From an uncultured bacterium (GTDB lineage Bacteria > Oederibacteriota > Muellerivitia > Muellerivitales > Muellerivitaceae), in NCBI GenBank assembly GCA_964392085.1, contig CAYMOV010000004.1:16808-80807 (forward strand): a stretch of 64,000 nucleotides of DNA. The letters run 5' to 3'. Of this stretch, positions 14,380 through 51,980 are shown piece by piece. Under the pieces are notes generated by a model. That model saw only the letters and a program-made list of their open reading frames with translations. It searched no databases and was not told the origin of the DNA. How positions within the stretch are numbered: position 1 is the first letter of the stretch; each line of letters opens with the position of its first letter. Position numbers and translations under genes: made by a program.

Positions 14380-15096
14380 TCAGTCGATTTCGTCCTGGCG
14401 GTCCACCAGTGCCTGGAGTTCCTTGACGGTGATCTTCCCCCGGCTGGTTTCCACCAGGCCGTCCTCCTCCAGCGCCTTGAAGGTGCGGATGCAGGTCTCC
14501 ACGGTGGTACCGGCCATCTCGGCCACTTCCCGGCGGGTCAGGGGGATCTGGTTTCCGAACTCCCCCACTAGGTGCACCAGCACGTGCAGGATGCGCTTCT
14601 CCACGCTCTCCTGGTCGAAGGTGCGCATGTCCTGCATCTGGCGCAGGCGGGTGGAGAGGTGGGCGACCAGTTCCCGGGATATTTCCGGGTGCTTTTTCAT
14701 CAGATCCAGGAAGTCCCCCATGGCGAGGCTCACCACCACGGTATCGGTCTCAGCCAGGGCGTTACAAGGGTACTGTTCGGAGGAAAAACTACAGCAAGTC
14801 CCGAACATGTGGTTGAGGCCCATGGTACAGATGGTCAGGTCGCGGCCCTGCGGCATGTGCTTGACGGCCTTGACCCGCCCTTCCTTCACGAACCAAACGT
14901 GGGTCGCGGCGTCGCCCTCCAGGAAGATGGGTTGGCCTTTGGGATAGCGTTTCTCGACCATCTTCCGCTCGATCGCCGCCATCTGGGACGGCGGGACGCT
15001 CTTGAAGAGGTCGATGCTGGCCACGAAGTTTTTGGACGGCGCGGTTGCCACGGTGGGCCTTGCCTGGATCGTATTGTCTTTACGGGTTTCAATCAT
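14380..15096 (-). CDS. Crp/Fnr-family transcription factor 1 (DNR/HcpR-like)
   Basis: cNMP-like sensor domain plus HTH PLTRREVAEMAGTTVETCIR. No N-terminal FNR Cys cluster. ATG 15096 with GGAGG RBS. Confidence 0.9.
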   Translation of the reverse strand: MIETRKDNTIQARPTVATAPSKNFVASIDLFKSVPPSQMAAIERKMVEKRYPKGQPIFLEGDAATHVWFVKEGRVKAVKHMPQGRDLTICTMGLNHMFGTCCSFSSEQYPCNALAETDTVVVSLAMGDFLDLMKKHPEISRELVAHLSTRLRQMQDMRTFDQESVEKRILHVLVHLVGEFGNQIPLTRREVAEMAGTTVETCIRTFKALEEDGLVETSRGKITVKELQALVDRQDEID

Positions 15097-15167: not shown

Positions 15168-16325
15168 TCACTTGGCCCCAACCCGATAACCCTGCTGAAA
15201 GGCCTCTTGGGGAACATAGGCGCAAAAAGGCTCTTCCCCGAGGTAATCCCCGGTGACGCCGAAGGCCCGGGCCCGGCAGCCGCCGCAGGTGGCCTTGTGG
15301 TCGCAAAGGCCGCATTTGCCCCCGAGGAGATCCGGGTCCCGAAGGCTGCGGAAAACCATCGACTGTTCCCAGATCTGGCGGAAGCCGGTTTTCTTCAGGT
15401 CCCCCGCCTCGAGCGGCAGGTAACCGCAGGGGAACATCCGGCCGTCATGGCTGATGAAGCCCACGCCGCTGCCGGCCAGGCAGCCCTTGGTCATGGCGTG
15501 GAGGGCCGCCCCCGAGGGATGGCCTCCCCCGGACTTGGCCTGGTGCTTGTGGAGCATCTGGGCCATGCGCTTACCGCTTTCGGGGTTGCGCTTCTGCTCT
15601 TGGGCGGCGATTCGGAAGAAATGCGGGGCGCAGGTGGCCTTGAGCTCGAGTTCGGTGAACTCCATGGCCCGGTAGAACCACTTGAGGACCCGCTCGTAAT
15701 CGGCGGGGGTGATTTGCTTCTCCTCCTCGATGGTCAAGCCGCAACCCACCGGCACCAGGAGGAAGATGTGGAAGGCGTCCACCCCGAGGCCCTTGGCCAA
15801 TTCCAGGATCTCAGGAAGTCGATCAAGGTTATGGCGGGTCACGGTGGTGTTGATTTGGGTGGAAACACCCTCGGACCGCAGGAACTCCAGCGCGCGGAGG
15901 GTCTTGTCGAAACTGCCGGGCACTTGGCGGAACCCGTCGTGCACCTGGGCGTTCGGCCCGTCCAGGCTGACCGCCACCCGGGCCACGCCGGATTCGCGGA
16001 TGCGCCTGGCGTTGGCCGCGTCGATCAGGGTGCCGTTGGAAGCCAGGGCCATGCGGAAGCCCAGCTTCTTGGAATGGGCCAGGAGATCGAAGAGGTCCTT
16101 GCGGTAAAGGGGCTCCCCCCCGCTGAAGATCATCAGGGGCTTGGCGTACTCGGCGATGGAGTCGAGCACCCCAAGGGCCTGCTCGGTGGTCAATTCCCCC
16201 GGCAGGCGTTCTTCCGACGCTTCCGCCCGGCAATGGACACAACGAAGGTTGCAACGCTTGGTGGTCTCCCAAAACAGGAGACGCGGTGGTTGCACAATGG
16301 AAACGGCATTCGAGGCTTCAGACAT
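15168..16325 (-). CDS. ahbD: Radical SAM/SPASM heme synthase, AhbD-like (coproheme decarboxylase)
   Basis: WETTKRCNLRCVHCRA, LKATCAPHFFR, KGCLAG...FISHDG.MFPCGYL, GKCGLC...CGGCRARA. This pattern fits AhbD better than AhbC/NirJ. Confidence 0.7.
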   Translation of the reverse strand: MSEASNAVSIVQPPRLLFWETTKRCNLRCVHCRAEASEERLPGELTTEQALGVLDSIAEYAKPLMIFSGGEPLYRKDLFDLLAHSKKLGFRMALASNGTLIDAANARRIRESGVARVAVSLDGPNAQVHDGFRQVPGSFDKTLRALEFLRSEGVSTQINTTVTRHNLDRLPEILELAKGLGVDAFHIFLLVPVGCGLTIEEEKQITPADYERVLKWFYRAMEFTELELKATCAPHFFRIAAQEQKRNPESGKRMAQMLHKHQAKSGGGHPSGAALHAMTKGCLAGSGVGFISHDGRMFPCGYLPLEAGDLKKTGFRQIWEQSMVFRSLRDPDLLGGKCGLCDHKATCGGCRARAFGVTGDYLGEEPFCAYVPQEAFQQGYRVGAK

Positions 16326-16668: not shown

Positions 16669-17040
16669 ATGAAGCGTTTAATGAGTGTGGCTTTGGCGGG
16701 CCTTTTCACCGTCGCGGTGGTTCACGCGGCGGATGTGGACGGTAAGAAGGTGTTCGGCGCGAAATGCGCCATGTGTCACGGGCTGGACGGCAAGGGCAAA
16801 CCCGCCATGGCCAAGGTCAAGAAGCTGGATCCTTCAGCCCTCGACATGACCAAGGCCTCCACCACGGGCAAGCCCCTTGAGGAATTGATCAAGAACACCA
16901 GCGACGGCAACGGCAAGATGGGCGCCATGAAGGCCAAAATGACCCCGGCCGAAATCGAAGCCTCGGTCAAGTACATGCTCACGCTGTCGGCCGCCAAGGA
17001 CGGCAGCAAGAAGGACGCCGCGAAGTCGGATAAGAAATAA
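16669..17040 (+). CDS. Periplasmic monoheme class I cytochrome c, copy 1
   Basis: Signal peptide (VVHA-A), CAMCH, distal GKMGAM, Lys-rich. Confidence 0.9.
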   Translation: MKRLMSVALAGLFTVAVVHAADVDGKKVFGAKCAMCHGLDGKGKPAMAKVKKLDPSALDMTKASTTGKPLEELIKNTSDGNGKMGAMKAKMTPAEIEASVKYMLTLSAAKDGSKKDAAKSDKK

Positions 17041-17115
17041 GGTCCCCCCAAGGGCCGGGGCAATCCCCGGCCCGGTCTCGGGTGGGTCCTCAAACCAAAA
17101 AAGCGAGGGAATGCC

Positions 17116-17475
17116 ATGAAGAAGATCTGGATGACCGCGATGGTCGGGTTGTTGGCGGTGTCGATGGCCCAAGCGGCCGACGTGGACGGCAAGAAGGTGT
17201 TCGGGGCCAAATGCGCGATGTGCCACGGCTTGGACGCCAAGGGCAAGCCCGCCATGGCCAAGGCCAAGAAGGTGGATCCTTCGGCCATGGACTTGACCAA
17301 GGCCTCCACCCAGGCCAAGCCGGACGCCGACCTGGTGAAGGCCACGAGCGACGGCACCGGGAAAATGGCCGCCATGAAGGGCAAGATGACCCCGGCGGAG
17401 ATCGACGCCGCCGTGGCCTACCTGAAGACGCTCGGCGCCAAGAAGGACGCCCCGAAGGCCGACGACAAGAAGTAA
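17116..17475 (+). CDS. Periplasmic monoheme class I cytochrome c, copy 2
   Basis: Signal peptide (AQA-A), CAMCH, GKMAAM. Confidence 0.9.
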   Translation: MKKIWMTAMVGLLAVSMAQAADVDGKKVFGAKCAMCHGLDAKGKPAMAKAKKVDPSAMDLTKASTQAKPDADLVKATSDGTGKMAAMKGKMTPAEIDAAVAYLKTLGAKKDAPKADDKK

Positions 17476-17550
17476 ACTGTTCACCTGTTTCCCCGCGCCG
17501 CCGCGGGCGTTCTCGGCGGCGCGGTTTCTTTAATCTCGGAGGGAAAAGAC

Positions 17551-17898
17551 ATGAAGAAGATCTGGATGATGGCAGTGGCGGGTTTGATGGCCGTTTCCGT
17601 GGCCCACGCGGCCGATGTGGACGGCAAGAAGGTGTTCACCACGCGTTGCGCCATGTGCCACGGCCTGGACGCCAAGGGAAAACCCGCCATGGCCAAGGCC
17701 AAGAAGGTCGAACTTTCGGCGATGGACCTGACCAAGGCCGGCGTGGCCTCGAAGGACATCTCGAAGATCGTCACGAACGGAACCGGCAAAATGGCGGCCA
17801 TCAAGGGTTTGACCCCCGCGGAAGTCGACGCGGTGGCGGCTTACTTGAAGACCTTGGCCCCCGCGGCTGACGCCAAGAAAGCCGACGCGAAGAAGTAA
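17551..17898 (+). CDS. Periplasmic monoheme class I cytochrome c, copy 3
   Basis: Signal peptide (AHA-A), CAMCH, GKMAAI. Confidence 0.9.
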   Translation: MKKIWMMAVAGLMAVSVAHAADVDGKKVFTTRCAMCHGLDAKGKPAMAKAKKVELSAMDLTKAGVASKDISKIVTNGTGKMAAIKGLTPAEVDAVAAYLKTLAPAADAKKADAKK

Positions 17899-17924
17899 TA
17901 TAACGACGGCCTAGCCGTAAAACC

Positions 17925-17957
17925 AAAAGCCCCGGCCTTCTGGCCGGGGCTTTTTTT
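17925..17957 (+). terminator. Intrinsic terminator after the cytochrome c trio
   Basis: AAAAGCCCCGGCC-TTCT-GGCCGGGGCTTTTTTT. Confidence 0.85.
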
Positions 17958-18045
17958 ATTGGACGGACCAACCATCAACATCTCTGACCACGGGGTTAAA
18001 ACGACGATTACGATGGGCCGGCAACTCCAAATTCCTCACGCCTAA

Positions 18046-18186
18046 CAGGGTGCTGAAAAAGTGTTTTTCACCTTGCCAACGGCCATGTGGGTCGAGCGAA
18101 TCGCCGTGAATCCCCTGGTTTTTGGGGGGATGATTCGCGAGTAGGCCACGAAAAAGTCTCATCAGTTCGACTTTTTCATCCTCCTG
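18046..18186 (+). mobile_element. MITE copy 3 (141 bp)
   Basis: Same TIRs; CTAA duplications at 18042-18045 and 18187-18190. Confidence 0.85.
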
Positions 18187-18208
18187 CTAATTCCTAACCG
18201 CCGTCTGG

Positions 18209-19768
18209 TTAGGGTTTGGCGGTCAGGAATTTCCCGATGAAGGCCGGTTTCTCGCCGTCATGGCAGGTCACGCAAGTCTTCCGGAAGGTCTTCGCGTCGG
18301 GCTTCCAGGTGTGTTTTTCGTGGCATTGGGTGCAGGTCAGCCCCAGGTCCAAATGGGCCTGGTGTTTCCCCTTGTCCTGGATGCCCACATGGCACTTCAA
18401 GCAGGTGTCCCCTTTCGATTGGGGCGACCCCAGGTGCAGAACGTGGCACTCCCCGCAGGCCACCTTCGCCATGGGAGCGGTGGCCGGATGGTCCGCCTCA
18501 TCGTGGCATTGGAAACAGGCGCTGTTGGGCGGCTGGACGCTTCGGAGGCCCTGTCGGTCGGAGCTGGGGAGGCTGTTGTGGCAGGTGTCGCAGGACAGGG
18601 TCTTGTGGGTCGTCCCCTTGAGCAAGATCGGGTGGTCCATCTCTTGGGGGGCCTTCCCGGTCCCGAAATCGGGCCGGCTGTGGCACAGGTTGCAGTCCTG
18701 GGAGATGGTCTGGCCGTCCTCGCTCACGTGTTTTCCGTCATGGCACCGGAAACAGCCGGGCCCGCCTTGGGTGTGGCCAAGGTGGTTGGGGTTGCTGTTC
18801 CAATTGGTGTTCATCTCAGGGAACTGGGTCTTGTCGAAGATCCCCATGAGTTTGTCCGGAAGGGCGTTGATCTCCTGGGTCCGGGACGCGAAGACCTTAG
18901 GAAGGTTCCGCTTATAGAAATCCGGGAACTGATCCAATTCCTTCAGCGCGTCCTCCCTTGAACCATAGATCTTGTCCAGGAACTTGGAGGCCTGGTGCTT
19001 GAAATAAGGCAGGTCGGTCGGCAGGGTGCCGTTTTCCATCCCCTTATCCAGCCAGGCTTCGGGGGCCAAGTCCACGTGGGCCACCCGGTTGTGGCAATCC
19101 ATGCAATCCATCCGGCGGAGCCGGTCCTTCTCGACCGCCAACTTGTCCGCGTCCTGGAAGCCCTCCAGCCGGAAAATGGTTTCCTTTCCGTCGCGCTTCA
19201 CCTTCACCCAGGGGATCACCAGTCGCTTCTCATCGGCGGCGGCGTAATCCACTTCCTGCTCGATATGCCAATGGATGCCGTGGCCCTCGCGCCCCTCCAC
19301 CTCGGCGCCCCCGGTCTTCATGGTGAGGTTGACCCATTGGCGGGTATTGTCCGGGTCATCGCCGAAGTGGACCTTGGTGATCTTCTTGTCCCCGTAGTAT
19401 TTTTGGGGCCAATGGCATTGCTCGCAGGTGAACCTGGCGGGACGCAAGTGCTTCACGGGACCGACGATGGGCTTCGGATAGCTGTGGGTGAGCATGGAAT
19501 AGGTTTCCCGCGAGGCCTCGATCTTCGATTGGACCAGGTGGATGACCCCCGGGCCGATATGGCAGGTCCCGCAGTCCACCTTGGCGTGGGGGGAAAAATC
19601 GTGTTCCACCCGTTCGGGCTTCATCACGTGGCAGGTGTAGCCGCAGAACTGGGTGGTTTCCACCTCATGGACGCCCTTGAGGAGCGCGAGGAACACCAAG
19701 CCCCCCAGGAGGCCGGCGGCCCCGAGTAGGACAAAAAACCTGAAACCCAGGGGTGCGATCTTTTTCAT
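18209..19768 (-). CDS. Membrane-anchored NapC/NirT-family (ImcH-like) multiheme cytochrome, 12 heme motifs
   Basis: N-terminal TM helix, FCGYTCH (CX3CH) plus 11 CXXCH, RPARFTCEQCHWP, MDCMDCHNR. ATG 19768 with GGAGG. Confidence 0.8.
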   Translation of the reverse strand: MKKIAPLGFRFFVLLGAAGLLGGLVFLALLKGVHEVETTQFCGYTCHVMKPERVEHDFSPHAKVDCGTCHIGPGVIHLVQSKIEASRETYSMLTHSYPKPIVGPVKHLRPARFTCEQCHWPQKYYGDKKITKVHFGDDPDNTRQWVNLTMKTGGAEVEGREGHGIHWHIEQEVDYAAADEKRLVIPWVKVKRDGKETIFRLEGFQDADKLAVEKDRLRRMDCMDCHNRVAHVDLAPEAWLDKGMENGTLPTDLPYFKHQASKFLDKIYGSREDALKELDQFPDFYKRNLPKVFASRTQEINALPDKLMGIFDKTQFPEMNTNWNSNPNHLGHTQGGPGCFRCHDGKHVSEDGQTISQDCNLCHSRPDFGTGKAPQEMDHPILLKGTTHKTLSCDTCHNSLPSSDRQGLRSVQPPNSACFQCHDEADHPATAPMAKVACGECHVLHLGSPQSKGDTCLKCHVGIQDKGKHQAHLDLGLTCTQCHEKHTWKPDAKTFRKTCVTCHDGEKPAFIGKFLTAKP

Positions 19769-19796
19769 GTTTCCCTCCAAACCTGCGCGCCCCGCC

Positions 19797-21437
19797 TCAG
19801 CGGGGCGTTTTTTTATCTGATCGGCGCGGTCTGCCGTGCAACCAGGACCAATTCATGGGATAGACGTCCGGATCGAATAGGACCCAGTAAAAGTGCCAAA
19901 CCGGGATCGCCAGGGACGCCAAGACGGCCTCCCAGAAGTGCACGGACAGGAAGACATCCAAGATCCACTTGGGCATGTTCCCCAGGGACCAGTTCTTGAA
20001 GAAAACAAAGGAGCCCGTCAGGCCCATCACGCCCGTTCCCCAGACCAGGGCCCAATACTCCGCTTTTTCGATATACGTGAAGTGGCGGTGGGGCGGAGGC
20101 GTTTTCCGGCGGCCGAGAACATACATCAAACGTTGTTGCAGGTCACCCAAATCGTGCATCGCGGGAAGGATCGCCTTGAATTGTCGACGGCCCCTGTCGG
20201 TGAAGGCTAGGTAGGCGATGTGGAACAGGCTGGTACCCAGCAAGACCGCGGCGGCCCCCATATGGATGCCGTGGCGCCAGGCCGCGCCGTCGGCGAACCA
20301 GCTGAAAGGGGCGGCCCACCAGGCTTTGGGCCAAGTATGGGCGAAACCCGTGTAAGCCAACGTGACGAATGAACAGGCCAAAAGCGCGTGCTGCATCCTC
20401 TCAACCCGTTCCAACCGGGTCTCCTGGTAGAAGGATTCCGGGTAAAGGCTATGGCCTGGGTGGGTTAGCTTATAGATAAAATCCAACCCGTTGTGGGTCG
20501 CCATGCCCCCGACGGTCAAGAGGATCAGCCAAAAGTACATCCATTTGATGAAGTTGATCGGGGTCTTTTGCTCCGTATCCCGGGGGTTTTCGTGCATCCG
20601 GCCCTGGATCACGCCCGCGCCGGCCCCCGGGTGGCATTTGGAACAGGTCTGGGCCAGGTTGGCCGGGTTGACCGTGGACCTCGGATCCGAGGGCGGCAGG
20701 ATGTTATGCACGCCATGACAGGAGGAACAGTTCGCGGCCTTCAATACACCCGCCTTCAACGCGACGCCGTGGAACCCTCCCTGGTAGGTCTTGGCCACGT
20801 CCGGGTTGATCTTGAATTGTCCCGCGATGGCCACGCTGGCGTGGCATTGGGAACAGGTCTCGGGGATCCGTTGGGCCGAAACCGGCGAGTCGGGGTCGTC
20901 GGGTCCCAGGAACTTATGCTCCCCATGGCACGACGTGCAGACCGGAGCCTCGGCCACCCCGTTGCGCATGGCGGTGCCGTGGACGCTTCCCAGGTAATCC
21001 TTCACCACCTGGGGATGGCACTTGCCGCAGGTTTCCGGCAGTTTGCCCCGGCTGATGGGGGACCGGTCGTCGGAGGGCGGCAAGATCGCGTGGGGCGAAC
21101 CGTGGCACCGGAGGCAGGCCTCGGGCTCCCGAACGTCCTTCCAGAAGCGCCCGTGGTGGCTGGCCCGGAAAGTGTCGGCCATGTCGGCGTGGCAGGTGGC
21201 GCATTGCACCTTCTTCCGGCCGGTCGGGTGGGGGTATTCGGTGATGCCCTCGTGGCAATCGGCGCAGGAGAGCCCCTGGTGGATGGATCGTTGGAACAAT
21301 TTGGGTTGGACGAAAGGCGCGCCCGAGGTCTTGTCCCCATGGCAGGCCAGGCAAGTGTCGTGGTCCGACCCGGCCCGGAGTGGGCTGATCGCGAGGAACA
21401 GCGTGGCGGCCAGGAGGATGCATGCGGTTCGGTTCAT
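19797..21437 (-). CDS. CbcL-like protein: 9-heme periplasmic domain fused to FdnI/HydC-type cytochrome b
   Basis: Signal peptide, 9 CXXCH, then TM helices with RMQHAL, RHGIHMG, SVHFWEA, WHFYW and YTYIEK.EYWALVWG-type motif. ATG 21437 with GGAGG. Confidence 0.8.
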   Translation of the reverse strand: MNRTACILLAATLFLAISPLRAGSDHDTCLACHGDKTSGAPFVQPKLFQRSIHQGLSCADCHEGITEYPHPTGRKKVQCATCHADMADTFRASHHGRFWKDVREPEACLRCHGSPHAILPPSDDRSPISRGKLPETCGKCHPQVVKDYLGSVHGTAMRNGVAEAPVCTSCHGEHKFLGPDDPDSPVSAQRIPETCSQCHASVAIAGQFKINPDVAKTYQGGFHGVALKAGVLKAANCSSCHGVHNILPPSDPRSTVNPANLAQTCSKCHPGAGAGVIQGRMHENPRDTEQKTPINFIKWMYFWLILLTVGGMATHNGLDFIYKLTHPGHSLYPESFYQETRLERVERMQHALLACSFVTLAYTGFAHTWPKAWWAAPFSWFADGAAWRHGIHMGAAAVLLGTSLFHIAYLAFTDRGRRQFKAILPAMHDLGDLQQRLMYVLGRRKTPPPHRHFTYIEKAEYWALVWGTGVMGLTGSFVFFKNWSLGNMPKWILDVFLSVHFWEAVLASLAIPVWHFYWVLFDPDVYPMNWSWLHGRPRRSDKKTPR

Positions 21438-21461
21438 GGGCGGCCTCCCTTTTCCCCCGGG

Positions 21462-21490
21462 ATCTTGACTGGGACCCCATCCCTTGTCAA
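21462..21490 (-). promoter_or_regulatory. Sigma70-type promoter for the cbcL-like/imcH-like pair
   Basis: TTGACA-N17-CAAGAT on the minus strand, just downstream of a terminator. Confidence 0.5.
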
Positions 21491-21510
21491 CGCGTTCATC
21501 GGACCGGCTG

Positions 21511-21554
21511 AAATAAAAGAGGCCGGCCCTGCGCGTGCGGCGCATGACCGGCCC
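21511..21554 (-). terminator. Intrinsic terminator ending mtrAB
   Basis: Minus strand GGCCGG..TGCGC-loop-GCGCA..CCGGCC followed by TCTTTTATTT. Confidence 0.6.
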
Positions 21555-21624
21555 GAGCCCCGAGCGGGGCCTGTGAACCGGGGGAGCCTCCCTGAAAGGA
21601 TCCCCCGGGGTGAGCCTTCCTTTG

Positions 21625-21765
21625 CGGGGTGCGGAAAAAGTGTTTTTGCGCCCCGCCAACAGCCACGTGGTTCGAGCGAATCGCATTAAATCCCCCGGTT
21701 TTGGGGGGATGATCCGCGAGTACGGCATGAAAAAGTCTCTTCAGTCCGACTTTTTCATCATCCTG
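21625..21765 (+). mobile_element. MITE copy 4 (141 bp), inserted at the mtrB stop codon
   Basis: TIRs CGGGGTGCGGAAAAAG / CTTTTTCATCATCCTG; flanks TTTG / TTAG (1 mismatch). Confidence 0.8.
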
Positions 21766-23946
21766 TTAGAACTTCGCCGTCACCTGCGCGCCCGCGATGC
21801 TGGCGATGTAGTTCGAGGGATGGTCGCCGAGGAACACGCCCACCAAGGCGCCGGTGACCGGGTTGGTGATGACCTGGCCCTGGAACTGGTTGGCGAAATC
21901 ATTCACCTTGTAGACTTCCAGGGTGTACGAACCGGCCAACGACCAGGTGTTGTCCAACTTGACGGTCAACTTCGCCGTGTAGTCGTCCTGGAGGGTCGTG
22001 GTGTCGGGCAAGCCGCCCTCGATCACGGTGGCGGTGCTGGCTTGGTCCGTCATGAGCACCCGGCCAAGCGAGGAGGCCCGGGTGTAGCCGAGGTTCGAGG
22101 ACAAGCCCGAGCCCAGGTCGGCGTCCATGCCGATACCGTACACGATGTAATGCTCCTCGGTGCTGGCCTTCCAATAGTGGGCCGTGTCCTGGACACCGGC
22201 GGAATCGGCCTGGAGCGCGTTGTAGAGCTCATGCTCGTACATGGCGTTCAATCCGACCTTTTCGGAAACCTGCCAGTCCCCCGTGACCGAATGCATCACG
22301 TGCTTGTCGTTCAACAGGCCGTACTGCAGGGTGGTGGTCACCGCGCCGCCCACGTCTTGGCCCGTCAAGTCGCCGTTCGGCTGGAAGTCGTCGGTCCCGT
22401 GGGTGAAACGGTAGGAAACGTTCACCGTCTTGATCGGCGACAAACGCAGGTCGCCGCCCAGGTCCTTGCGGATCCGATTGGCCTCGTCGAAGCGGCGGAG
22501 GCCCGGCATGTCACCCGAGGCCAGCCAAGCCGTGGCGTTGTATTGGCTGACTTCCCGCTGGGCTTGGGAACCGGTCAGGGCCACCTTGACCCCTTTCACC
22601 GGGGTGACGTCCACCCCGCCCTTCACCGTGCGTTCGATCGACTTCGCGAACTCGCGGTCGGTGCGGAAGACGTCCTGGTAGATGTAGCCGCCGTTCAACC
22701 CCACGACCTTCAACAGGTCGTAGCGGGCTTCCCCCTCACCGGTGTAGGTCCGGTTCCCGAAGTAAGTGGGATAGGAGTTGCCGCCTGTGGCGCTGCCGCC
22801 CGTGGCGGCCTTGCCGCCGACCGTCACGGCGTTGCTCCGGTTGTCCATCTCATAACCCCGGAAGCGGGCCACCAACTTCAGCTTTTGGATCGGCATCACG
22901 GTAACCTGGTATTGCTGGCTGAAGGTGTCCACCCGCCCGCCGAGGTTGGCGGGATTCGGCACGGCGTTGTAGCCGAAGGTGGCCGCACTGTCGGCCGTAT
23001 AGGGCAAGAACGCCGCGTTTTGGTACCAACGGCCCACGGCCACATTGGCCGTCACCCGGGTCTTGGGGATCTGGTCCAACGACACGAACAATCCGGCTTG
23101 TTGCGCCAGGTTGCTCGGCGGCTGGCTGTAGAGGCCCTGGCTCGGCTTCGAGGAAGTGGGGACGGACCACATCAGGTCGTCGAAATGGATCGAGCTGATG
23201 TTGTCCTCAAAACTTGAGACGTTGCCGTTCAGCCGAACGACGGTCTTCGCGGGCATCCATTCGATGGAAAGCCCCCCGTCCGTCGTGCGTTGGTCGATCG
23301 GCGCGGGCAACTGGTTGATCACGCTGTTTTCGTACACGCTGAGCGGGCGGGTCCCCTGGCGCATCTTGACCTGTCCGTCCACGTTCATCGTCAACTGGGG
23401 CAATACATGGTACGTCACCCGGCCCCCGCCGAGCGTGTCCCGGAACATCACCACCGAGGGCGCCGTAGCGTTCTCGGCGGTCACCAGGTTGTTGAACTGC
23501 TGGGAGGCGTTCCCCACCTGGTTGGCGGCCGCCAAACCCGGAGGCAGGGTCAACACACCCGGCGCGGTCTCGGTATAAAGGGTGTGGGCCTGGTCCCCAT
23601 AGAGGTGCTGGTAGCGCTGGTAGTTGATGTCCACCGACACCTTGTCGGTTTCACCCAACCCCAACCCCACCCCGAGGGACTCGTTGTTCTCGGTCGGGAA
23701 GGCGAAGTCGGCGCGGAGGCGCTTGTCGCCCAGGTCGGCCCCGATCCAGCCGGTGGGGCCCAGCAGGCCCCCCGGCAGGTTGTTGTACTCCTCCAGCTTG
23801 GGGTTGGAGGACGTGGAGTAAACCCCGCCCACGCCCGTGGTGATCTCCCCATCCCAGATGGAGGCCGAAAAGGCTTGGGTCGTCAAGATGAGGGCCGCCG
23901 CGGCCGCCATCAGGCCCATGATCCCGGTTTTCAACGTGGTCTTCAT
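21766..23946 (-). CDS. mtrB: MtrB/PioB/DmsF-family outer-membrane beta-barrel porin
   Basis: Signal peptide, alternating beta-strand pattern, LPAPIDQRT, GLRRFDEANR, C-terminal Phe, directly downstream of a decaheme. ATG 23946 with AAGGAG. Confidence 0.85.
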   Translation of the reverse strand: MKTTLKTGIMGLMAAAAALILTTQAFSASIWDGEITTGVGGVYSTSSNPKLEEYNNLPGGLLGPTGWIGADLGDKRLRADFAFPTENNESLGVGLGLGETDKVSVDINYQRYQHLYGDQAHTLYTETAPGVLTLPPGLAAANQVGNASQQFNNLVTAENATAPSVVMFRDTLGGGRVTYHVLPQLTMNVDGQVKMRQGTRPLSVYENSVINQLPAPIDQRTTDGGLSIEWMPAKTVVRLNGNVSSFEDNISSIHFDDLMWSVPTSSKPSQGLYSQPPSNLAQQAGLFVSLDQIPKTRVTANVAVGRWYQNAAFLPYTADSAATFGYNAVPNPANLGGRVDTFSQQYQVTVMPIQKLKLVARFRGYEMDNRSNAVTVGGKAATGGSATGGNSYPTYFGNRTYTGEGEARYDLLKVVGLNGGYIYQDVFRTDREFAKSIERTVKGGVDVTPVKGVKVALTGSQAQREVSQYNATAWLASGDMPGLRRFDEANRIRKDLGGDLRLSPIKTVNVSYRFTHGTDDFQPNGDLTGQDVGGAVTTTLQYGLLNDKHVMHSVTGDWQVSEKVGLNAMYEHELYNALQADSAGVQDTAHYWKASTEEHYIVYGIGMDADLGSGLSSNLGYTRASSLGRVLMTDQASTATVIEGGLPDTTTLQDDYTAKLTVKLDNTWSLAGSYTLEVYKVNDFANQFQGQVITNPVTGALVGVFLGDHPSNYIASIAGAQVTAKF

Positions 23947-23969
23947 GTAGTTCTCCTTGCTTGTTCCGG

Positions 23970-25007
23970 TCAACGGAAGAAGGTCTGACCGGACGGGTCG
24001 TTGCTGCCGTGGATGTTCGAGTGGCAGTTCGTGCAGCCTTGCACCATCAGCCGGGCCGCGTTCTGCGACAGCTGCGTGTTGCCGATGCCGCCGGACCACT
24101 CCGTGCTCGGGTGGCCGCTGCCGCTGTGGCAGCGCTGGCAGAGCAGGGGTTCCCGCTCGCGCAACAGGTGGTCGTTGTGGCTGCCGTGGGGATCATGGCA
24201 GTTCAGGCAGTTCTCGCGCACCGGGGCGTGCTCCCAGAGGTAGGGGCCGCGCTTGTCCGCGTGGCAGGAGTAGCAGTTCTCATTGACCGAGTCGCCCTTC
24301 AGGTTGTGGTCGATCACCCCGCCGTGCGGGTTGTGGCAGGAGGTGCAGTTGATGTCGCCTTCCCGAACCGGCATGTGGGCGGAACGCTTCATCTGGGCTT
24401 TCTTGTCCGTGTGACAGCCGTAGCAAAGCTCGGGAGGCTCGGCTTTCAGCAGGTGGGCCTTCATGGTCTTCTCGGCCTGGTGGACCTGGTGGCAGTCGAC
24501 GCACTTCACGTCCTTCAGGTCGTGAGGGCTTCCCTTCCAATGGCTCTGCATGCCGCCCCGGTGGCAGGTCAGGCAAGCCGCGTTGGCTTCGGACGCCGGG
24601 AGGTTGGTGAGGTTCTTGATGGTGTGGAACCCGGGGTTGTCCTTGTCGCCGGCGGCGGCGGCATGGAGGCTGCCGGGGCCGTGGCAGGTCTCGCAGGTCC
24701 GTTGGAATTCCACACCCTTGCGGGCGGGCATCAAACGGGCGTGGATGGATTGCTTAAAAATCCCGCCCTGTTCGTCGTGACAACCCAGGCAAGTGTCCGC
24801 CCCGACGTATTCGGCCTTGTCCATCAAGGCCTTGGTTTCTTTCGCGCTCGACGTGTCGGCGGAGGCCGCAACGGGGGTTGGGTCAGCCGTCACCGTCTTT
24901 GTCGCGGTCTCGGCGGCGCTGGCGATCGCCAACCCCCCCAAGAGCGAAATCAAGACGGCTCCGACCGTCCAGCCGAGGCGCTGGATGTCTTTCCGGCTCA
25001 GGGCCAT
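23970..25007 (-). CDS. mtrA: MtrA/DmsE/PioA/MtoA-family decaheme cytochrome c
   Basis: 10 CXXCH, YVGADTCLGCH, KRGPYLWEHAPVRENCLNCHDPHGS, CTNCHSNIHGSNDPSG. Confidence 0.92.
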   Translation of the reverse strand: MALSRKDIQRLGWTVGAVLISLLGGLAIASAAETATKTVTADPTPVAASADTSSAKETKALMDKAEYVGADTCLGCHDEQGGIFKQSIHARLMPARKGVEFQRTCETCHGPGSLHAAAAGDKDNPGFHTIKNLTNLPASEANAACLTCHRGGMQSHWKGSPHDLKDVKCVDCHQVHQAEKTMKAHLLKAEPPELCYGCHTDKKAQMKRSAHMPVREGDINCTSCHNPHGGVIDHNLKGDSVNENCYSCHADKRGPYLWEHAPVRENCLNCHDPHGSHNDHLLREREPLLCQRCHSGSGHPSTEWSGGIGNTQLSQNAARLMVQGCTNCHSNIHGSNDPSGQTFFR

Positions 25008-25041
25008 GGAAAAGCCTCCTCAAGAGTTTCCTGCGATGTGA

Positions 25042-25083
25042 AGGTTATCAATTTCTTTGCAGACGCAAGATGATACGCATCAC
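25042..25083 (-). promoter_or_regulatory. Class II Crp/Fnr-type promoter for mtrAB
   Basis: Box ATGATACGCATCAC 25070-25083; -10 TAACCT (25047-25042) at 29.5 bp. Confidence 0.7.
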
Positions 25084-35576: not shown

Positions 35577-37259
35577 TTACTTTTTCTTAGATGAAACCTT
35601 CACGGGTTTGGCCGCGCCCTTCGGGGCCGCTCCGGCCCTTTGACTGGCCAGGTAGTGCGAAAGGTCCTCGATCTGGGCCGGTGTCAGGTCGCCCTCAAAG
35701 GGTGGCATGGCTGAATCCTTGTTCACCTTGGGCGGATTCGTCACGTAAGTCTGGATCCAAGGCGCGTCCCGGTATTGGCCGATGCTGGAAAGGTCGGGGC
35801 CGATCTCCTCGCCCTTGCCGTGGAGCTTGTGGCAGACCATACAACGCTCCTCGAACAAGGGCGGGGCCTTCGGGGAGTAGGTGCCGCCCCCCAGGGTGCT
35901 CATGTAAGCCACCAGGGACTGGACTTCGTTGTCCAAGAGGTTGAAATTCGGCATCACGGTCCCCTTGGTGACCTGTTGGGGGTTGCGGAAGTGGGCGGTC
36001 AACCATCCCGCGTCCCGCCGGGAACCTACCTCGTCGAGGACCGGGCCGATGTGACCTCCCTTTCCGTCCAAGGTATGGCAATATTGGCACTTCAAGTCGC
36101 CATAGAGCCGTTTTCCCTCCATCACCAGGGGATTCCTCGCCAAAATTGGGTTGGTCAGGGGCGACCGCAGCCCCTGGAACGTCAGGAAACCGATCCCGAG
36201 GATGGCGGCCAGCCCGACCGTCGTCAGGATCGGGCGGTCAAACGGATGGCGACGGAAGCTCCGGTCCAGGAACGGAAGGGCCACCAACGCCGTGACCCCC
36301 AATCCCGGCAGGAGAATCGTGGCGATGGCCTCCAGGGACCCCGGGAAATACTTCAAACCCTGGAAGATGAAAAGGAAGTACCATTCGGGCCGCGGGTTGT
36401 AGGAAGTATCCGTCGGATCAGCCAACCCCTCGAGTTCCGCGCCCTTCCAGAGGGCCAGGCCCGCGATGACCGCCAGAAGAAGGGCGATGGCGAAGGTGTC
36501 CTTGAAAACGACGTAGGGGAAGAAAGACTTGCCCTTCTCCTTCATTTCCAAGTACCGGTGATGGAGCTTTTCCTTCCAGCCGGGCCCCTCAGGATTGAAC
36601 GACTTGATTTTCTCCGGGGGGGCTGAAATGCCGTGCCACACCACCAGGAAAAGGTGGAGTCCCATCAGCCCCAGGATGGTCATCGGCAAAAGGAGCATGT
36701 GGATGGCGTAGAACCGCGTGAGCGTGATGGCTCCCAGTTCGTCGCCGCCCTTGAGGATCTTGCCCACATAGGCCCCGATGATCGGCGTCTGTTCGGAAAT
36801 ATGGGAACCCACCACCGTGGCCCAATAGGCCTTCTGGTCCCACGGCAACAGGTAACCCGTGAACCCCAAACCGATGACCACCAGGAGCAGGCCGACGCCG
36901 GTCAGCCAGGTCGCTTCCCGGGGGTACTTGTAGGCCGCCATGAAATAAACCCGGATCATGTGCAGGACCACCACGACCACCATGGCGCTGGCGCCCCATT
37001 TGTGGAGCCCCCGCAGGAAGGCGCCCATGGGCACCACGTCCATGATGAAGCGGATGGAATCATAGGCGTGGTCCGGCGAGGGCGAGTAATGCATGGCCAA
37101 GAGCATGCCGGTCACGGCCTGCATCAGGAACAGGAAACCCGCCATGCTGCCGAGGGTGTAACGCCAATCCACGCCCTTCGGGATCTTCCGGTCCAGCAGG
37201 GTCTCCTTGACCTTCCGCCAGCCCGTCCGTTCATCCAATTCGTCCAGGAAATTTTTCAT
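35577..37259 (-). CDS. Cytochrome b (b6 + subunit IV type) fused to two c-type heme domains
   Basis: RGLHKWGAS...LHMIR, GYLLPWDQ, RFYAIH-x14-H, PRPEWYF, CQYCH and CMVCH. ATGA overlap with Rieske. Confidence 0.9.
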   Translation of the reverse strand: MKNFLDELDERTGWRKVKETLLDRKIPKGVDWRYTLGSMAGFLFLMQAVTGMLLAMHYSPSPDHAYDSIRFIMDVVPMGAFLRGLHKWGASAMVVVVVLHMIRVYFMAAYKYPREATWLTGVGLLLVVIGLGFTGYLLPWDQKAYWATVVGSHISEQTPIIGAYVGKILKGGDELGAITLTRFYAIHMLLLPMTILGLMGLHLFLVVWHGISAPPEKIKSFNPEGPGWKEKLHHRYLEMKEKGKSFFPYVVFKDTFAIALLLAVIAGLALWKGAELEGLADPTDTSYNPRPEWYFLFIFQGLKYFPGSLEAIATILLPGLGVTALVALPFLDRSFRRHPFDRPILTTVGLAAILGIGFLTFQGLRSPLTNPILARNPLVMEGKRLYGDLKCQYCHTLDGKGGHIGPVLDEVGSRRDAGWLTAHFRNPQQVTKGTVMPNFNLLDNEVQSLVAYMSTLGGGTYSPKAPPLFEERCMVCHKLHGKGEEIGPDLSSIGQYRDAPWIQTYVTNPPKVNKDSAMPPFEGDLTPAQIEDLSHYLASQRAGAAPKGAAKPVKVSSKKK

Positions 37260-37762
37260 GCCTTCTTCCCCTCGGGCAGGATCAGGATGGAGCCATTGGC
37301 GATCTTCGTGGGAAACCGGTCCAAGGGCCGGGGCGGCGGCCCGGACAGGACCTCCCCGGTCTTGCTGAACACCCCGGAATGACAGGGGCACACGAAGGAA
37401 TTCTTCGAGTCGTCCCAACGGTAGGGACAGCCTAAATGGGTGCAATGGGGGTCGAAAGCGGTCAATTGGTCGCCGTCCTTCAGGAGCCAAACTGAGCTCC
37501 GGCCCTCCACCACCATCCAACCGTCGGTCTTGCGCTTCACGTAGTCGCGCTTGGTCGGGACGCCGGAAGGAAGGGACGCCAAGGGGCCGACGTCGATCCA
37601 CCCCTCATCCTTCTTGCGCCAAGCCGGGGACAGGAAATACATCAGCCCACTGCCCCCCAGCACCAACCCCACCAGGGAACCGATCAGGAAGATCCCCCAG
37701 GACAGGAAGCTTCGACGGCTCAACCCCTCACCCTCCGGGTGCTGGTCCTCGTTCATTTTCAT
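37256..37762 (-). CDS. Rieske [2Fe-2S] protein
   Basis: Tat motif SRRSFL, CTHLGC, CPCHSG, GPPPRPL. Confidence 0.92.
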   Translation of the reverse strand: MKMNEDQHPEGEGLSRRSFLSWGIFLIGSLVGLVLGGSGLMYFLSPAWRKKDEGWIDVGPLASLPSGVPTKRDYVKRKTDGWMVVEGRSSVWLLKDGDQLTAFDPHCTHLGCPYRWDDSKNSFVCPCHSGVFSKTGEVLSGPPPRPLDRFPTKIANGSILILPEGKKA

Positions 37763-38541: not shown

Positions 38542-38687
38542 GTTCCCATCCTCCTGGGCCGGTCCGCCGGAGCCAAAGGCTCCCGGGGCATCCCCACCCC
38601 GTTCGACGGATTCCGCCGCTGATTCCTCCGCCCGTCTTTCCCGGGCGGTCTTGTTCGCCCGCCCGGGTCCGACCGAAAAACAGTTAA

Positions 38688-38830
38688 CAGGGTGCTGAAG
38701 CATTTTTGATTCGCCCTGTCAGCAGCCACGTTGTTCGATCGAATCGTTGTAAATCCCCTGGTTTTCGAGGGGATGACTCGTGAGCAAGATATGAAAAAGT
38801 CTCTTCTAGCTCGACTTTTTCATCATCCTG
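38688..38830 (+). mobile_element. MITE copy 6 (143 bp), at a stop codon
   Basis: TIRs CAGGGTGCTGAAG / CTTTTTCATCATCCTG; TTAA duplications at 38684-38687 and 38831-38834. Confidence 0.8.
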
Positions 38831-50667: not shown

Positions 50668-50748
50668 CCTCAGGTCGCCACCATCTAGTCGTGTCTTGAA
50701 TTTATAATTTAAGTATTAAGCCAACAACCCAAAACTGAATATCCAAAG

Positions 50749-51958: not shown

Positions 51959-51980
51959 CGATTAGAAGGGCCGTAAAATC

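What the first reader, a model, noticed from the sequence alone, without database searches (positions are those of the whole stretch)
16669..25083. Complete porin-cytochrome conduit with both CbcL-like and ImcH-like inner-membrane partners and no MtrC
Seen: mtrA (10 hemes), mtrB (barrel), a 9-heme/cytochrome b fusion, a 12-heme NapC/NirT protein and three monoheme cytochromes, contiguous in 8.4 kb, with no extracellular MtrC/OmcA-type lipoprotein. Known: MtrAB homologs without MtrC (PioAB, MtoAB) occur in Fe(II) oxidisers, and Geobacter uses CbcL and ImcH for low- and high-potential acceptors, encoded apart from its porin-cytochrome genes. Inference: a hybrid, possibly bidirectional extracellular electron transfer system wired to two quinone-interface routes. 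This is the best candidate for an undescribed system here. The direction of electron flow cannot be read from sequence.
Basis: partly seen in the sequence, partly recalled or inferred. Interest (0 to 1): 0.82.

Follow-up and report, generated by a model that had tools for sequence, protein, structure and literature searches.

The report
MtrAB electron conduit with CbcL and ImcH
An uncultured peat or soil bacterium carries in one 8.3-kb cluster all the haem proteins needed to pass electrons between its membrane quinone pool and the cell exterior; most of it matches the known mtoABCD operon type, with an ImcH-type cytochrome added, so it is a new variant of a known system.

Summary
Window 16669-25007 encodes MtrA (10 CXXCH), MtrB (PF11854), a CbcL/MtoC-type protein (9 c-haems plus a cytochrome b domain), an ImcH-type protein (CX3CH plus 11 CXXCH) and three class-I monohaem cytochromes. 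No MtrC/OmcA gene occurs in about 74 kb of the 80-kb contig.

- CbcL, MtoC and MtrH are one family. The set mtoA-mtoB-mtoC-mtoD is a published operon in Gallionella ES-2 and Dechloromonas RCB.
- Rhodoferax ferrireducens already combines NapC/NirT-type and CbcL-type quinol enzymes with mtrABC.
- The part not described in the literature I could search is an ImcH-family gene next to mtrAB. A 2018 survey said explicitly that none had been found.
- That arrangement is not unique to this window. Eleven Acidobacteriota MAG loci carry mtrA, mtrB, cbcL and imcH together; five have exactly mtrA-mtrB-monohaem c-cbcL-imcH.
- A cbcL-imcH pair occurs in 29 of 40 metagenome loci with enough flanking sequence.

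The window's ImcH is an unusual form with one transmembrane helix and 12 haems.

The direction of electron flow remains undetermined. I favour quinol-driven export to soluble Fe(III)-organic or humic acceptors, probably reversible.

Verdict: new variant of a known kind, moderate interest.

The parts
16669..17040 (+). Monohaem class-I cytochrome c, paralogue 1 (123 aa, signal peptide, CAMCH, c6/c552-like with a conserved GKM methionine).
   Evidence: cytc2 and cytc3 were compared with PDB sequences: best matches are cytochrome c6, c-552 and CcoP domains. cytc1 is 55-68% identical to them.
17116..17475 (+). Monohaem class-I cytochrome c, paralogue 2 (119 aa).
   Evidence: It is 66-72% identical to its neighbours.
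17551..17898 (+). Monohaem class-I cytochrome c, paralogue 3 (115 aa).
   Evidence: Homologues at 31-48% identity lie directly after mtrB in Elusimicrobia and Terriglobia MAG loci.
17925..17954 (.). Hairpin with a 13-bp stem flanked by A and T runs. It is a likely bidirectional terminator between the convergent cytochrome c genes and the imcH-like gene.
18209..19768 (-). ImcH-family inner-membrane cytochrome (519 aa). It has one transmembrane helix, a CX3CH-VM haem-1 site and 11 CXXCH. That is the 7-haem ImcH core plus 5 extra C-terminal haems.
   Evidence: AF2 model pLDDT 73; residues of about 1-114 superpose on NrfH 2VR0/2J7A with rmsd 3.0 A and TM 0.60.
19797..21437 (-). CbcL/MtoC/MtrH-family protein (546 aa). 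It has a signal peptide, a 9-haem periplasmic domain and a C-terminal cytochrome b (HydC/FdnI-like) membrane domain.
   Evidence: About 5 transmembrane segments and six His residues (315, 350, 392, 406, 500, 515) that are invariant among 8 homologues.
21438..21765 (-). 328-bp intergenic gap between mtrB and the cbcL-like gene. It may hold an internal promoter. No terminator, promoter consensus or Rfam match was found.
21766..23946 (-). MtrB/PioB-family outer-membrane beta-barrel (726 aa, signal peptide).
   Evidence: PF11854 231 bits. phmmer match to 6R2Q_B at E 2e-11 over residues 92-695. The AF2 model is low confidence, but its best PDB fold match by a wide margin is 6R2Q_B, E 7e-18.
23970..25007 (-). 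MtrA/MtoA/DmsE-family decahaem cytochrome (345 aa, 10 CXXCH). It lies 23 bp upstream of mtrB.
   Evidence: It is 37-52% identical to MtrA homologues in 80 genome loci.
15168..16325 (-). AhbD-like radical-SAM/SPASM haem b synthase, divergent from the cytochrome c genes. It may be associated with the cluster as a haem supplier.
   Evidence: TIGR04545 439 bits, below the cut-off of 500. Homologues at 38-39% identity lie near mtrAB in L008 and L078.
14380..15096 (-). Crp/Fnr-family regulator (238 aa) and a candidate regulator of the cluster. Crp/Fnr genes also flank many related loci.
   Evidence: Two weak Crp/Fnr-like boxes lie at 25038-25051 and 25070-25083 upstream of mtrA, but they are not conserved in relatives.

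Best explanation
The cluster encodes a complete, self-contained extracellular electron transfer chain of the Mtr/Mto porin-cytochrome type.

Shown by sequence, family models and fold:
- MtrA is a decahaem wire and MtrB is the barrel that sheathes it in the outer membrane.
- Two different inner-membrane quinol/quinone oxidoreductases are encoded 28 bp apart. One is CbcL/MtoC-type, with a dihaem b membrane domain and 9 c-haems. The other is ImcH-type, with an NrfH-like haem-1 quinol site and 12 c-haems.
- Three soluble c6-like monohaem cytochromes are encoded alongside.

Inferred:
- Menaquinol is oxidised by the ImcH-type enzyme when the external acceptor is at high potential and by the CbcL-type enzyme when it is low, as in Geobacter sulfurreducens.
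- Electrons then cross the periplasm through the long haem domains of these two proteins, possibly with the soluble cytochromes, to MtrA.
- With no MtrC/OmcA-type surface cytochrome on this contig, the outermost haem of MtrA exchanges electrons directly with soluble or colloidal species, such as Fe(III)-organic complexes and humic quinones.
- The chain is probably reversible. The high-potential-type monohaem cytochromes would form the branch that links MtrA to the bc complex or oxidase side.

I favour export (respiration) as the main direction, without strong confidence.
For: - Family and fold assignments.
- The linkage is conserved. The order mtrA-mtrB-monohaem c-cbcL-imcH occurs in five Acidobacteriota MAG loci, and all four main genes occur together in eleven.
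- The cbcL-imcH pair is present in 29 of 40 metagenome loci with at least 2.5 kb on each side, and in 21 of these the two genes are less than 1 kb apart.
- A 53-56% identical cbcL-imcH pair lies next to nuoABC in L088.

Evidence for export:
- ImcH and CbcL are experimentally menaquinol oxidases used above and below about -0.1 V (PMC4251993 and PMC5322298; bioRxiv 10.1101/2023.05.03.539133).
- Desulfuromonas acetexigens expresses ImcH and CbcL homologues with consecutive accession numbers, together with Mtr proteins, on an anode (PMC12133095).
- The closest homologue of the 12-haem ImcH (64%) lies back to back with a true MtrC/OmcA-family decahaem lipoprotein.
- The window also encodes PFOR, NiFe hydrogenase with Hyp maturation proteins, acetate-activating enzymes and an AhbD-like haem synthase, which suggests an anaerobic, acetate- or H2-using lifestyle.
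Against: - Nothing in the sequence fixes the direction of flow.
- The gene set (no MtrC, a nonahaem MtoC-type protein, monohaem cytochromes) is that of mto operons of Fe(II) oxidisers.
- The three monohaem cytochromes resemble high-potential His/Met c6, c552 and CcoP domains. These would be poor donors to a low-potential decahaem.
- Purified Geobacter ImcH did not interact with the high-potential monohaem PccH.
- The cytochrome c genes are on the opposite strand. A 328-bp gap separates mtrAB from cbcL-imcH, so co-regulation is not shown.
- An MtrC could be encoded elsewhere in the genome, as in D. acetexigens.
- The MtrB model is of low confidence (pLDDT 52.6), and MtrA-MtrB docking was not tested.
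Confidence: 0.55

Rival explanations
1. This is an Mto-type electron uptake system. Fe(II), or reduced humic substances, would be oxidised at the surface by MtrA acting as MtoA. Electrons would pass to the three high-potential monohaem cytochromes in the role of MtoD, and on to a terminal oxidase or the bc complex for energy. A share would be pushed uphill into the quinone pool through the MtoC-type, and perhaps the ImcH-type, protein to make reducing power.
For: - The gene content equals mtoABCD of Gallionella ES-2 and Dechloromonas RCB (PMC5566968, PMC6295460).
- No MtrC lies within about 74 kb.
- The monohaem cytochromes are c6/c552/CcoP-like and triplicated.
- A cytochrome b-dihaem c fusion (35577-37601) and a cytochrome bd-like protein fused to cytochrome c (46003-47319) lie in the same window.
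- The samples include a JGI metagenome in which Fe(II)/Fe(III) cycling is plausible; I did not verify the habitat.
Against: - ImcH has so far been found and characterised only as a quinol oxidase in reducers.
- Its haems in Geobacter lie at -358 to -150 mV.
- No carbon-fixation genes and no haem-copper or cbb3 oxidase genes were seen in the window.
- MtoD (PDB 4XXL) is not among the 60 best PDB matches of the monohaem proteins.
- The genomic neighbourhood looks anaerobic and heterotrophic.
Confidence: 0.3
2. These are two or three independent modules that merely sit together: an MtrAB conduit, a cbcL-imcH quinol-oxidase pair that serves other outer-membrane systems, and a cytochrome c trio that serves the bc or oxidase chain. 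There would be no dedicated functional coupling between them.
For: - A 328-bp gap separates mtrB from cbcL, and the cytochrome c genes are convergent behind a terminator.
- Most cbcL-imcH loci in metagenomes have no MtrA nearby; only 5 of 19 loci with at least 8 kb on each side do.
- The closest ImcH homologue sits with different partners: an MtrC/OmcA-like protein, DUF5777 and a Rieske protein.
- The window's MtrA is not in the Terriglobia clade that carries cbcL-imcH.
Against: - The same five gene types recur in the same order in distant Acidobacteriota, there with the monohaem gene inside the operon.
- Monohaem cytochrome c genes also follow mtrB in Elusimicrobia loci.
- Recurrent assembly of the same parts argues for functional linkage.
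Confidence: 0.1
3. This is a DmsEF-like accessory conduit that feeds an extracellular or periplasmic terminal reductase, for example one acting on DMSO or another soluble oxidant, rather than metals or humics.
For: MtrA scores best on the 'DmsE family decahaem' model TIGR03508.
Against: - TIGR03508 is a subfamily model that covers MtrA, MtoA and DmsE alike.
- No molybdopterin or other reductase gene lies beside the cluster or in its relatives.
Confidence: 0.03

Closest known systems
mtoABCD operon of Gallionella capsiferriformans ES-2 and Dechloromonas aromatica RCB (MtoA decahaem, MtoB porin, MtoC nonahaem CbcL-family inner-membrane protein, MtoD periplasmic monohaem cytochrome c)
   Same: It has the same four component types, no MtrC, and a 9-haem MtoC-type protein with a cytochrome b domain.
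   Different: - The window adds an ImcH-family 12-haem protein.
- It has three monohaem genes rather than one, on the opposite strand. They are c6/c552-like and show no detectable similarity to MtoD.
- The host is not a betaproteobacterium, and its phylum is undetermined.
- MtrA is at most 52% and MtrB at most 26% identical to anything retrieved by these searches.
Rhodoferax ferrireducens mtr cluster (two cymA, mtrH and mtrABC)
   Same: It combines a NapC/NirT-superfamily quinol dehydrogenase and a CbcL-family protein with MtrAB in one cluster. That is two quinone-interface routes.
   Different: - Rhodoferax uses tetrahaem CymA, not ImcH.
- It has MtrC.
- It has no class-I monohaem trio.
Geobacter sulfurreducens ImcH (GSU3259) and CbcL (GSU0274)
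   Same: - The ImcH core architecture is shared: CX3CH beside the membrane helix, the same haem spacing and an NrfH-like haem-1 module.
- The CbcL architecture is shared: 9 c-haems plus a cytochrome b domain.
   Different: - In Geobacter the two genes are far apart and not next to porin-cytochrome genes.
- Geobacter ImcH has 3 transmembrane helices and 7 haems, against 1 and 12 here.
- Geobacter uses Pcc/Ext conduits and PpcA-type trihaem carriers, and none of these is encoded here.
Shewanella MtrCAB (structure 6R2Q)
   Same: MtrA is 37-40% identical to Shewanella MtrA. MtrB is homologous to 6R2Q chain B by sequence (E 2e-11) and is the best fold match.
   Different: There is no MtrC or OmcA and no CymA, FccA or STC. 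The inner-membrane partners are of Geobacter and Mto types.
Uncharacterised mtrA-mtrB-cyt c-cbcL-imcH loci in Terriglobia/Acidobacteriaceae MAGs (e.g. L006, L010, L016, L017, L022)
   Same: They have the same five gene types and the same order for mtrA-mtrB...cbcL-imcH.
   Different: - They are only 36-46% identical.
- Their ImcH is the canonical form with 3 transmembrane helices and 7 haems, and their MtrB is about 830 aa.
- They have one monohaem gene, inside the operon.
- Some add an 18-19-haem protein.
- None is described in the literature I could search.

Membership tests
MtrA/MtoA/DmsE decahaem cytochromes (TIGR03508) | Ten CXXCH motifs in a secreted protein of about 300-350 aa that scores above the curated cut-off. 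| tested here: met
   10 CXXCH, 345 aa, N-terminal signal or anchor, 270 bits against a cut-off of 192.
MtrA/MtoA/DmsE decahaem cytochromes (TIGR03508) | Encoded directly beside an MtrB/PioB-family barrel gene. | tested here: met
   mtrB starts 23 bp after mtrA ends.
MtrB/PioB outer-membrane barrel | Matches the family profile above the curated threshold. | tested here: inconclusive
   Pfam PF11854 gives 231 bits against a cut-off of 23, so that test is met. NCBIfam TIGR03509 gives 191 bits against a cut-off of 240, so that test is not met. phmmer to 6R2Q_B gives E 2e-11 over about 600 residues.
MtrB/PioB outer-membrane barrel | Folds as a large (26-strand) beta-barrel like MtrB in 6R2Q. | tested here: inconclusive
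   The AF2 model from a 6-sequence alignment has pLDDT 52.6. It is all-beta with about 28 strands. Its best PDB match is 6R2Q_B at E 7e-18 and TM 0.47-0.51; the next match, LptD, is at E 2e-6. This is consistent, but the model is weak.
MtrB/PioB outer-membrane barrel | Sheathes the decahaem MtrA. | not testable with these tools
   No multimer prediction was available.
CbcL/MtoC/MtrH (as defined in PMC6295460) | N-terminal periplasmic domain with 3-23 CX2CH motifs. | tested here: met
   9 CXXCH after a signal peptide.
CbcL/MtoC/MtrH (as defined in PMC6295460) | C-terminal HydC/FdnI-like cytochrome b domain with 4-6 transmembrane helices and conserved His haem ligands. | tested here: met
   PF01292 gives 35 bits against a cut-off of 30. 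There are about 5 hydrophobic segments and six invariant His residues among 8 homologues.
CbcL/MtoC/MtrH (as defined in PMC6295460) | At least about 29% identity to experimentally studied CbcL or named MtoC/MtrH. | not tested
   No reference sequence of GSU0274, MtoC or MtrH could be obtained with these tools.
ImcH (as defined in PMC6295460) | Atypical CX3CH motif immediately after the membrane domain. | tested here: met
   CGYTCH at residues 42-47, right after the helix at about 10-32, followed by VM as in NrfH CXXCHXM.
ImcH (as defined in PMC6295460) | Three N-terminal transmembrane helices (one in a few homologues). | tested here: not met
   There is only one helix, and no upstream coding room: the cbcL stop lies 28 bp away. 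That helix aligns with TMH3, the one equivalent to the NrfH helix.
ImcH (as defined in PMC6295460) | Five to nine CX2CH motifs (six in Geobacter). | tested here: not met
   11 CX2CH. The first six align with the canonical six, and five more lie in a C-terminal extension shared with 13- and 16-haem homologues.
ImcH (as defined in PMC6295460) | Homology of the core to proteins of canonical ImcH architecture. | tested here: met
   Identity is 40-43% over residues 30-400, gap-free, with haem spacing +24/+49/+107/+117/+20. The comparison proteins are of 497-506 aa with 3 transmembrane helices and CX3CH plus 6 CX2CH. No direct comparison with GSU3259 was possible, because no accession numbers were returned.
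NapC/NirT/NrfH quinol dehydrogenases | NrfH-like fold of the membrane helix plus the first haems, with a conserved Lys near haem 1. | tested here: met
   Foldseek matches 2VR0_F and 2J7A_C with probability 1.00, rmsd 3.0 A and TM 0.60 normalised to the target. phmmer to 2J7A_C gives E 1e-7. K82 is present in at least 90% of the 81 aligned homologues.
mtoABCD operon | mtoA, mtoB, mtoC and a monohaem mtoD clustered, with no mtrC. | tested here: met
   All four component types lie within 8.3 kb, and no MtrC lies within about 74 kb.
mtoABCD operon | The monohaem protein is an MtoD homologue. | tested here: not met
   The best PDB relatives are c6, c-552 and CcoP. MtoD (4XXL) is not among the 60 best of 95 matches at E up to 10. 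The role may still be analogous.
MtrCAB | An MtrC/OmcA-family decahaem lipoprotein gene clustered with mtrAB. | tested here: not met
   No such ORF is present in the window or in 10 kb beyond it.

The most novel reading that the evidence does not exclude
The adjacent cbcL-imcH pair is a conserved 'two-gear' quinol module of many uncultured soil and peat bacteria. Joined to MtrAB and c6-like monohaem cytochromes, as here and in many Terriglobia, it would form a single portable operon that switches route with the potential of the external partner. It could run in both directions, and it would be an undescribed major pathway for iron and humic redox cycling in acidic, organic-rich soils. The 12-haem, single-helix ImcH of this window would be a form long enough to reach MtrA without a soluble multihaem carrier.
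Probability: 0.25. Interest if true: 0.7.

Novelty: new variant of a known kind. Interest (0 to 1): 0.45.

Why it matters
ImcH and CbcL are the two best-studied entry points of Geobacter's extracellular respiration. How they connect to outer-membrane conduits is unresolved, and in Geobacter the genes are scattered.

Here, and in many Acidobacteriota MAGs, both lie in one compact cluster with an MtrAB conduit and candidate periplasmic carriers. This offers three things:
- a natural genetic hypothesis for which parts work together;
- a seven-gene, 8.3-kb cassette that could be moved into a laboratory host to test potential-dependent routing and reversibility;
- a marker set for electron exchange with iron and humic matter in peat and soil, where Acidobacteriota are abundant but their role in metal cycling is poorly known.

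It also updates a published statement that imcH is never adjacent to mtrAB. It widens the ImcH family from the 6-10 haem-binding motifs reported in 2018 to at least 19.

Tried and rejected
- **Taxonomy.** There is no rRNA in the window, and the one tRNA call is doubtful. A PFOR homologue search gave named hits at only 65-67% identity, spread over Verrucomicrobiota, Acidobacteriota and Chloroflexota. The MtrA tree puts the window on a long isolated branch. The phylum is undetermined.
- **Metagenome scan with MtrB.** It found nothing. The word-indexed protein search found only five MtrB homologues, at 23-26% identity. The AF2 alignment was therefore shallow and the model weak.
- **Tying the canonical-architecture ImcH homologues to Geobacter by accession number.** No accession numbers were returned. 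The Protein Science ImcH paper was not held, so I used the preprint instead.
- **Crp/Fnr sites.** Two weak boxes lie upstream of mtrA, but the background rate is high and they are not conserved in 17 relatives. I did not use them as evidence.
- **Rfam.** No hits.
- **Promoter scan.** Nothing above chance in the cluster.
- **MBNT15/Deferrimicrobiota paper.** Checked as a possible source organism; it does not describe this cluster.
- **Pentahaem protein 37759-38703 as a hidden MtrC.** Rejected. It has 5 haems and no lipobox, lies next to cytochrome b, and scores on PF22113 exactly as MtrA itself does.
- **Exact-product look-ups.** Two failed on start-codon choice before a third extended the contig view.


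Full report
**What is there**

On the minus strand, in transcription order:
- mtrA, 23970-25007, 345 aa, ten CXXCH.
- mtrB, 21766-23946, 726 aa, starting 23 bp after mtrA.
- A 328-bp gap.
- A gene for a 546-aa protein, 19797-21437, with a signal peptide, nine CXXCH and a C-terminal cytochrome b domain.
- 28 bp later, a gene for a 519-aa protein, 18209-19768. It has one N-terminal membrane helix, an atypical CX3CH site (CGYTCH) immediately after it, and eleven CXXCH.

Convergent on the plus strand, behind a strong bidirectional hairpin terminator at 17925-17954, are three paralogous monohaem class-I cytochromes c. They lie at 16669-17040, 17116-17475 and 17551-17898 and are 55-72% identical to each other.

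Family models agree:
- MtrA: TIGR03508 'DmsE family decahaem', 270 bits against a cut-off of 192.
- MtrB: PF11854 MtrB_PioB, E 3e-68.
- CbcL-like protein: PF01292 plus multihaem models.
- ImcH-like protein: PF03264 NapC/NirT over the N-terminus.
- Monohaem proteins: PF00034.

The same proteins are called at 100% identity on three contigs from three samples. The cluster is therefore real.

No further multihaem gene of MtrC/OmcA type exists in the window or in 10 kb more of the same 80-kb contig.

**The outer-membrane pair**

MtrB matches the crystallised MtrB of the Shewanella baltica Mtr complex (6R2Q chain B) by sequence, at E 2e-11 over about 600 residues.

It is very divergent. The word-indexed search of 5.8 billion proteins returned only five homologues, at 23-26% identity. 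With so shallow an alignment the AlphaFold model is weak, with mean pLDDT 52.6. It is nevertheless an all-beta meander of about 28 strands. Its best PDB match by eleven orders of magnitude is 6R2Q_B, at E 7e-18 and TM 0.47-0.51; the next matches are LptD barrels.

Threading of MtrA through the barrel could not be tested.

MtrA is 37-52% identical to homologues in 80 species-representative genomes. In a neighbour-joining tree it is a long, isolated branch near Elusimicrobia and assorted Acidobacteria sequences.

**The CbcL-like protein**

It has the architecture that defines the CbcL/MtoC/MtrH family in Zhong and Shi 2018 (PMC6295460):
- a periplasmic multihaem domain, here with nine haems as in Geobacter CbcL and Gallionella MtoC;
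- a HydC/FdnI-like cytochrome b membrane domain.

I find about five hydrophobic segments and six histidines in them that are invariant among eight homologues. I could not compare it directly with a reference CbcL or MtoC sequence.

**The ImcH-like protein**

The 2018 survey defines ImcH by three features: three N-terminal helices (one in a few homologues), an atypical CX3CH next to the membrane domain, and five to nine CX2CH.

The window protein has the CX3CH hallmark. A homologue search returned more than 3,700 relatives. Among them are proteins with exactly the canonical architecture: 497-506 aa, three helices, and CX3CH plus six CX2CH. These align with residues 30-400 of the window protein without gaps, at 40-43% identity and with identical haem spacing.

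The window protein keeps only the helix that corresponds to ImcH TMH3. According to the ImcH characterisation preprint, this is the helix that superposes on the single helix of NrfH at the quinol site.

An AlphaFold model from 81 homologues (pLDDT 73, pTM 0.71) superposes its first ~114 residues on NrfH (2VR0, 2J7A) at 3.0 A rmsd and TM 0.60. The confident middle domain (residues about 125-330, pLDDT up to 98) has no PDB counterpart.

Five extra C-terminal haems are homologous to extensions seen in 13-, 16- and 19-haem relatives. It is thus an ImcH-family member of an unusual form. Its closest relatives are only 64% and 53% identical.

**What is already known**

That is true for Geobacter, but CbcL, MtoC and MtrH are one family.
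- mtoA-mtoB-mtoC-mtoD is a described operon in Gallionella ES-2 and Dechloromonas RCB. Its parts are a decahaem, a porin, a nonahaem inner-membrane protein and a periplasmic monohaem cytochrome (PMC5566968; PMC6295460).
- mtoC and mtoD also accompany mtrCAB in Betaproteobacteria (PMC8805035).
- Rhodoferax ferrireducens has two CymA genes plus MtrH in its mtrABC cluster, so two kinds of quinone interface.

Six of the seven genes here therefore reproduce a known operon type.

The monohaem proteins are not detectable MtoD homologues, however. Their nearest solved relatives are cytochrome c6, c-552 and CcoP domains.

**What is not in the literature I could search**

The 2018 survey states that no mtrAB or mtoAB was found adjacent to imcH. 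The 2022 survey found no inner-membrane quinol oxidoreductase near the Acidobacteriia mtrCAB. Five full-text searches found no paper describing mtrAB with both cbcL and imcH.

The arrangement is nevertheless common in public data.
- Of the 80 genome loci retrieved with MtrA, eleven carry MtrA, MtrB, a CbcL-type and an ImcH-type gene together. All eleven are Acidobacteriota (Terriglobia, Acidobacteriaceae or Terriglobales MAGs).
- Five of these have the exact order mtrA-mtrB-monohaem c-cbcL-imcH. Others add an 18-19-haem protein.
- In 80 metagenome loci retrieved with a CbcL alignment, an ImcH-type gene accompanies cbcL in 29 of the 40 loci with at least 2.5 kb on each side. In 21 of these it lies within 1 kb.
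- MtrA is present in 5 of the 19 loci with at least 8 kb on each side.
- A 53-56% identical cbcL-imcH pair sits next to nuoABC in L088.
- In Desulfuromonas acetexigens the ImcH and CbcL homologues expressed on anodes have consecutive accession numbers.

The conserved core is thus the cbcL-imcH pair, and MtrAB plus a monohaem cytochrome is one recurrent outer partner.

The closest homologue of the window's 12-haem ImcH (64%) has a different partner set. It lies beside a true MtrC/OmcA-family decahaem lipoprotein (975 aa, PF22113 152 bits, lipobox), a DUF5777 membrane barrel, a Rieske protein and a lipoprotein monohaem cytochrome.

**How it most likely works**

Shown: the cluster encodes a decahaem with its barrel, two inner-membrane quinol/quinone oxidoreductases of different types, and three secreted monohaem cytochromes.

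Inferred: the two inner-membrane enzymes take electrons from menaquinol. By analogy with Geobacter, the ImcH type would serve acceptors above about -0.1 V and the CbcL type those below it (PMC4251993, PMC5322298). Electrons would reach MtrA through their long periplasmic haem domains, possibly with the soluble cytochromes. MtrA would then exchange electrons at the cell surface with soluble or colloidal partners, because no surface cytochrome is encoded nearby.

Evidence that leans toward export:
- the neighbourhood encodes PFOR, NiFe hydrogenase with Hyp maturation proteins, acetate-activating enzymes, H+-pyrophosphatase and an AhbD-like haem synthase;
- ImcH is known only as a quinol oxidase;
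- the sister ImcH is associated with an MtrC/OmcA-type protein.

Evidence that leans toward uptake:
- the mto-like gene set;
- the absence of MtrC;
- the c6-like, presumably high-potential monohaem cytochromes;
- a cytochrome b-dihaem c fusion 10 kb away.

I put export, probably reversible, at about 0.55 and dedicated uptake at about 0.30. Mere co-location of independent modules gets about 0.10.

**Verdict**

This is a new variant of the known Mtr/Mto porin-cytochrome cluster. The variant feature is an ImcH-family gene beside a CbcL/MtoC-family gene and MtrAB, here in a 12-haem, single-helix form. It is undescribed in the literature searched but widespread in MAGs. The host lineage could not be placed. 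Interest is moderate.

Noticed in passing
window 15168-16325 (-): AhbD-like radical-SAM/SPASM haem b synthase (TIGR04545, 439 bits, below the cut-off of 500), divergent from the cytochrome c genes. This suggests the siroheme-dependent haem pathway. Homologues at 38-39% identity lie near mtrAB in two Acidobacteria loci, L008 and L078.
   Followed up: partly
window 35577-38703 (-): A cytochrome b fused to two class-I cytochrome c domains (674-aa ORF) is preceded by a pentahaem NrfB-like cytochrome (37759-38703). This is an unusual bc-type complex 10 kb from the cluster. No Rieske gene was recognised beside it.
   Followed up: partly
window 46003-48410 (+): A cytochrome bd subunit-I-like membrane protein carries a C-terminal cytochrome c domain (46003-47319). 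It is followed by a 364-aa protein with no family match. It could be a cytochrome c-dependent bd-like enzyme.
   Followed up: no
window 21438-21765: A 328-bp gap between mtrB and the cbcL-like gene. The long ORF that runs into it (start at 21728) translates to Arg/Pro/Gly-rich sequence and is probably not coding. No terminator, promoter consensus or Rfam match was found.
   Followed up: partly
window 25038-25051 and 25070-25083: Two weak Crp/Fnr-type palindromes lie 44 and 76 bp upstream of mtrA, and a Crp/Fnr regulator gene lies at 14380-15096. They are not conserved upstream of mtrA in 17 related loci, and the background rate of such matches is high.
   Followed up: yes
L084-L087 (about 1650-8600 in L084): The closest homologue (64%) of the 12-haem ImcH-like protein lies back to back with a 975-aa MtrC/OmcA-family decahaem lipoprotein. 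Next to them are a lipoprotein monohaem cytochrome, a DUF5777 membrane beta-barrel and a Rieske protein. This may be a different, undescribed outer-membrane module.
   Followed up: partly
L019, L024, L025, L028, L034 (about 13.9-16 kb in L034): Terriglobia versions of the cluster insert an 18-19-haem, ~670-aa cytochrome after mtrB. In some a 317-aa protein follows it. L006 inserts Rieske-like, cytochrome b and 9-haem genes before imcH.
   Followed up: no
window 21766-23946 (-): MtrB is exceptionally isolated. The word-indexed search of 5.8 billion proteins returned five homologues, the best at 26% identity. MtrA finds relatives at up to 52% identity.
   Followed up: partly
window 58539-58631 (+): ARAGORN calls a 93-nt tRNA-Pro(CGG) inside the hypF coding region on the opposite strand. 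It is probably a false positive.
   Followed up: no
window 53278-63973: This stretch holds PFOR, HypF, a NiFe hydrogenase large subunit and NuoG-like Fe-S subunit genes, with HypD/E and a dihydroorotate dehydrogenase-like gene just upstream (49585-53208). PFOR's nearest named relatives are only 65-67% identical and spread over four phyla, so the host lineage is poorly sampled.
   Followed up: partly
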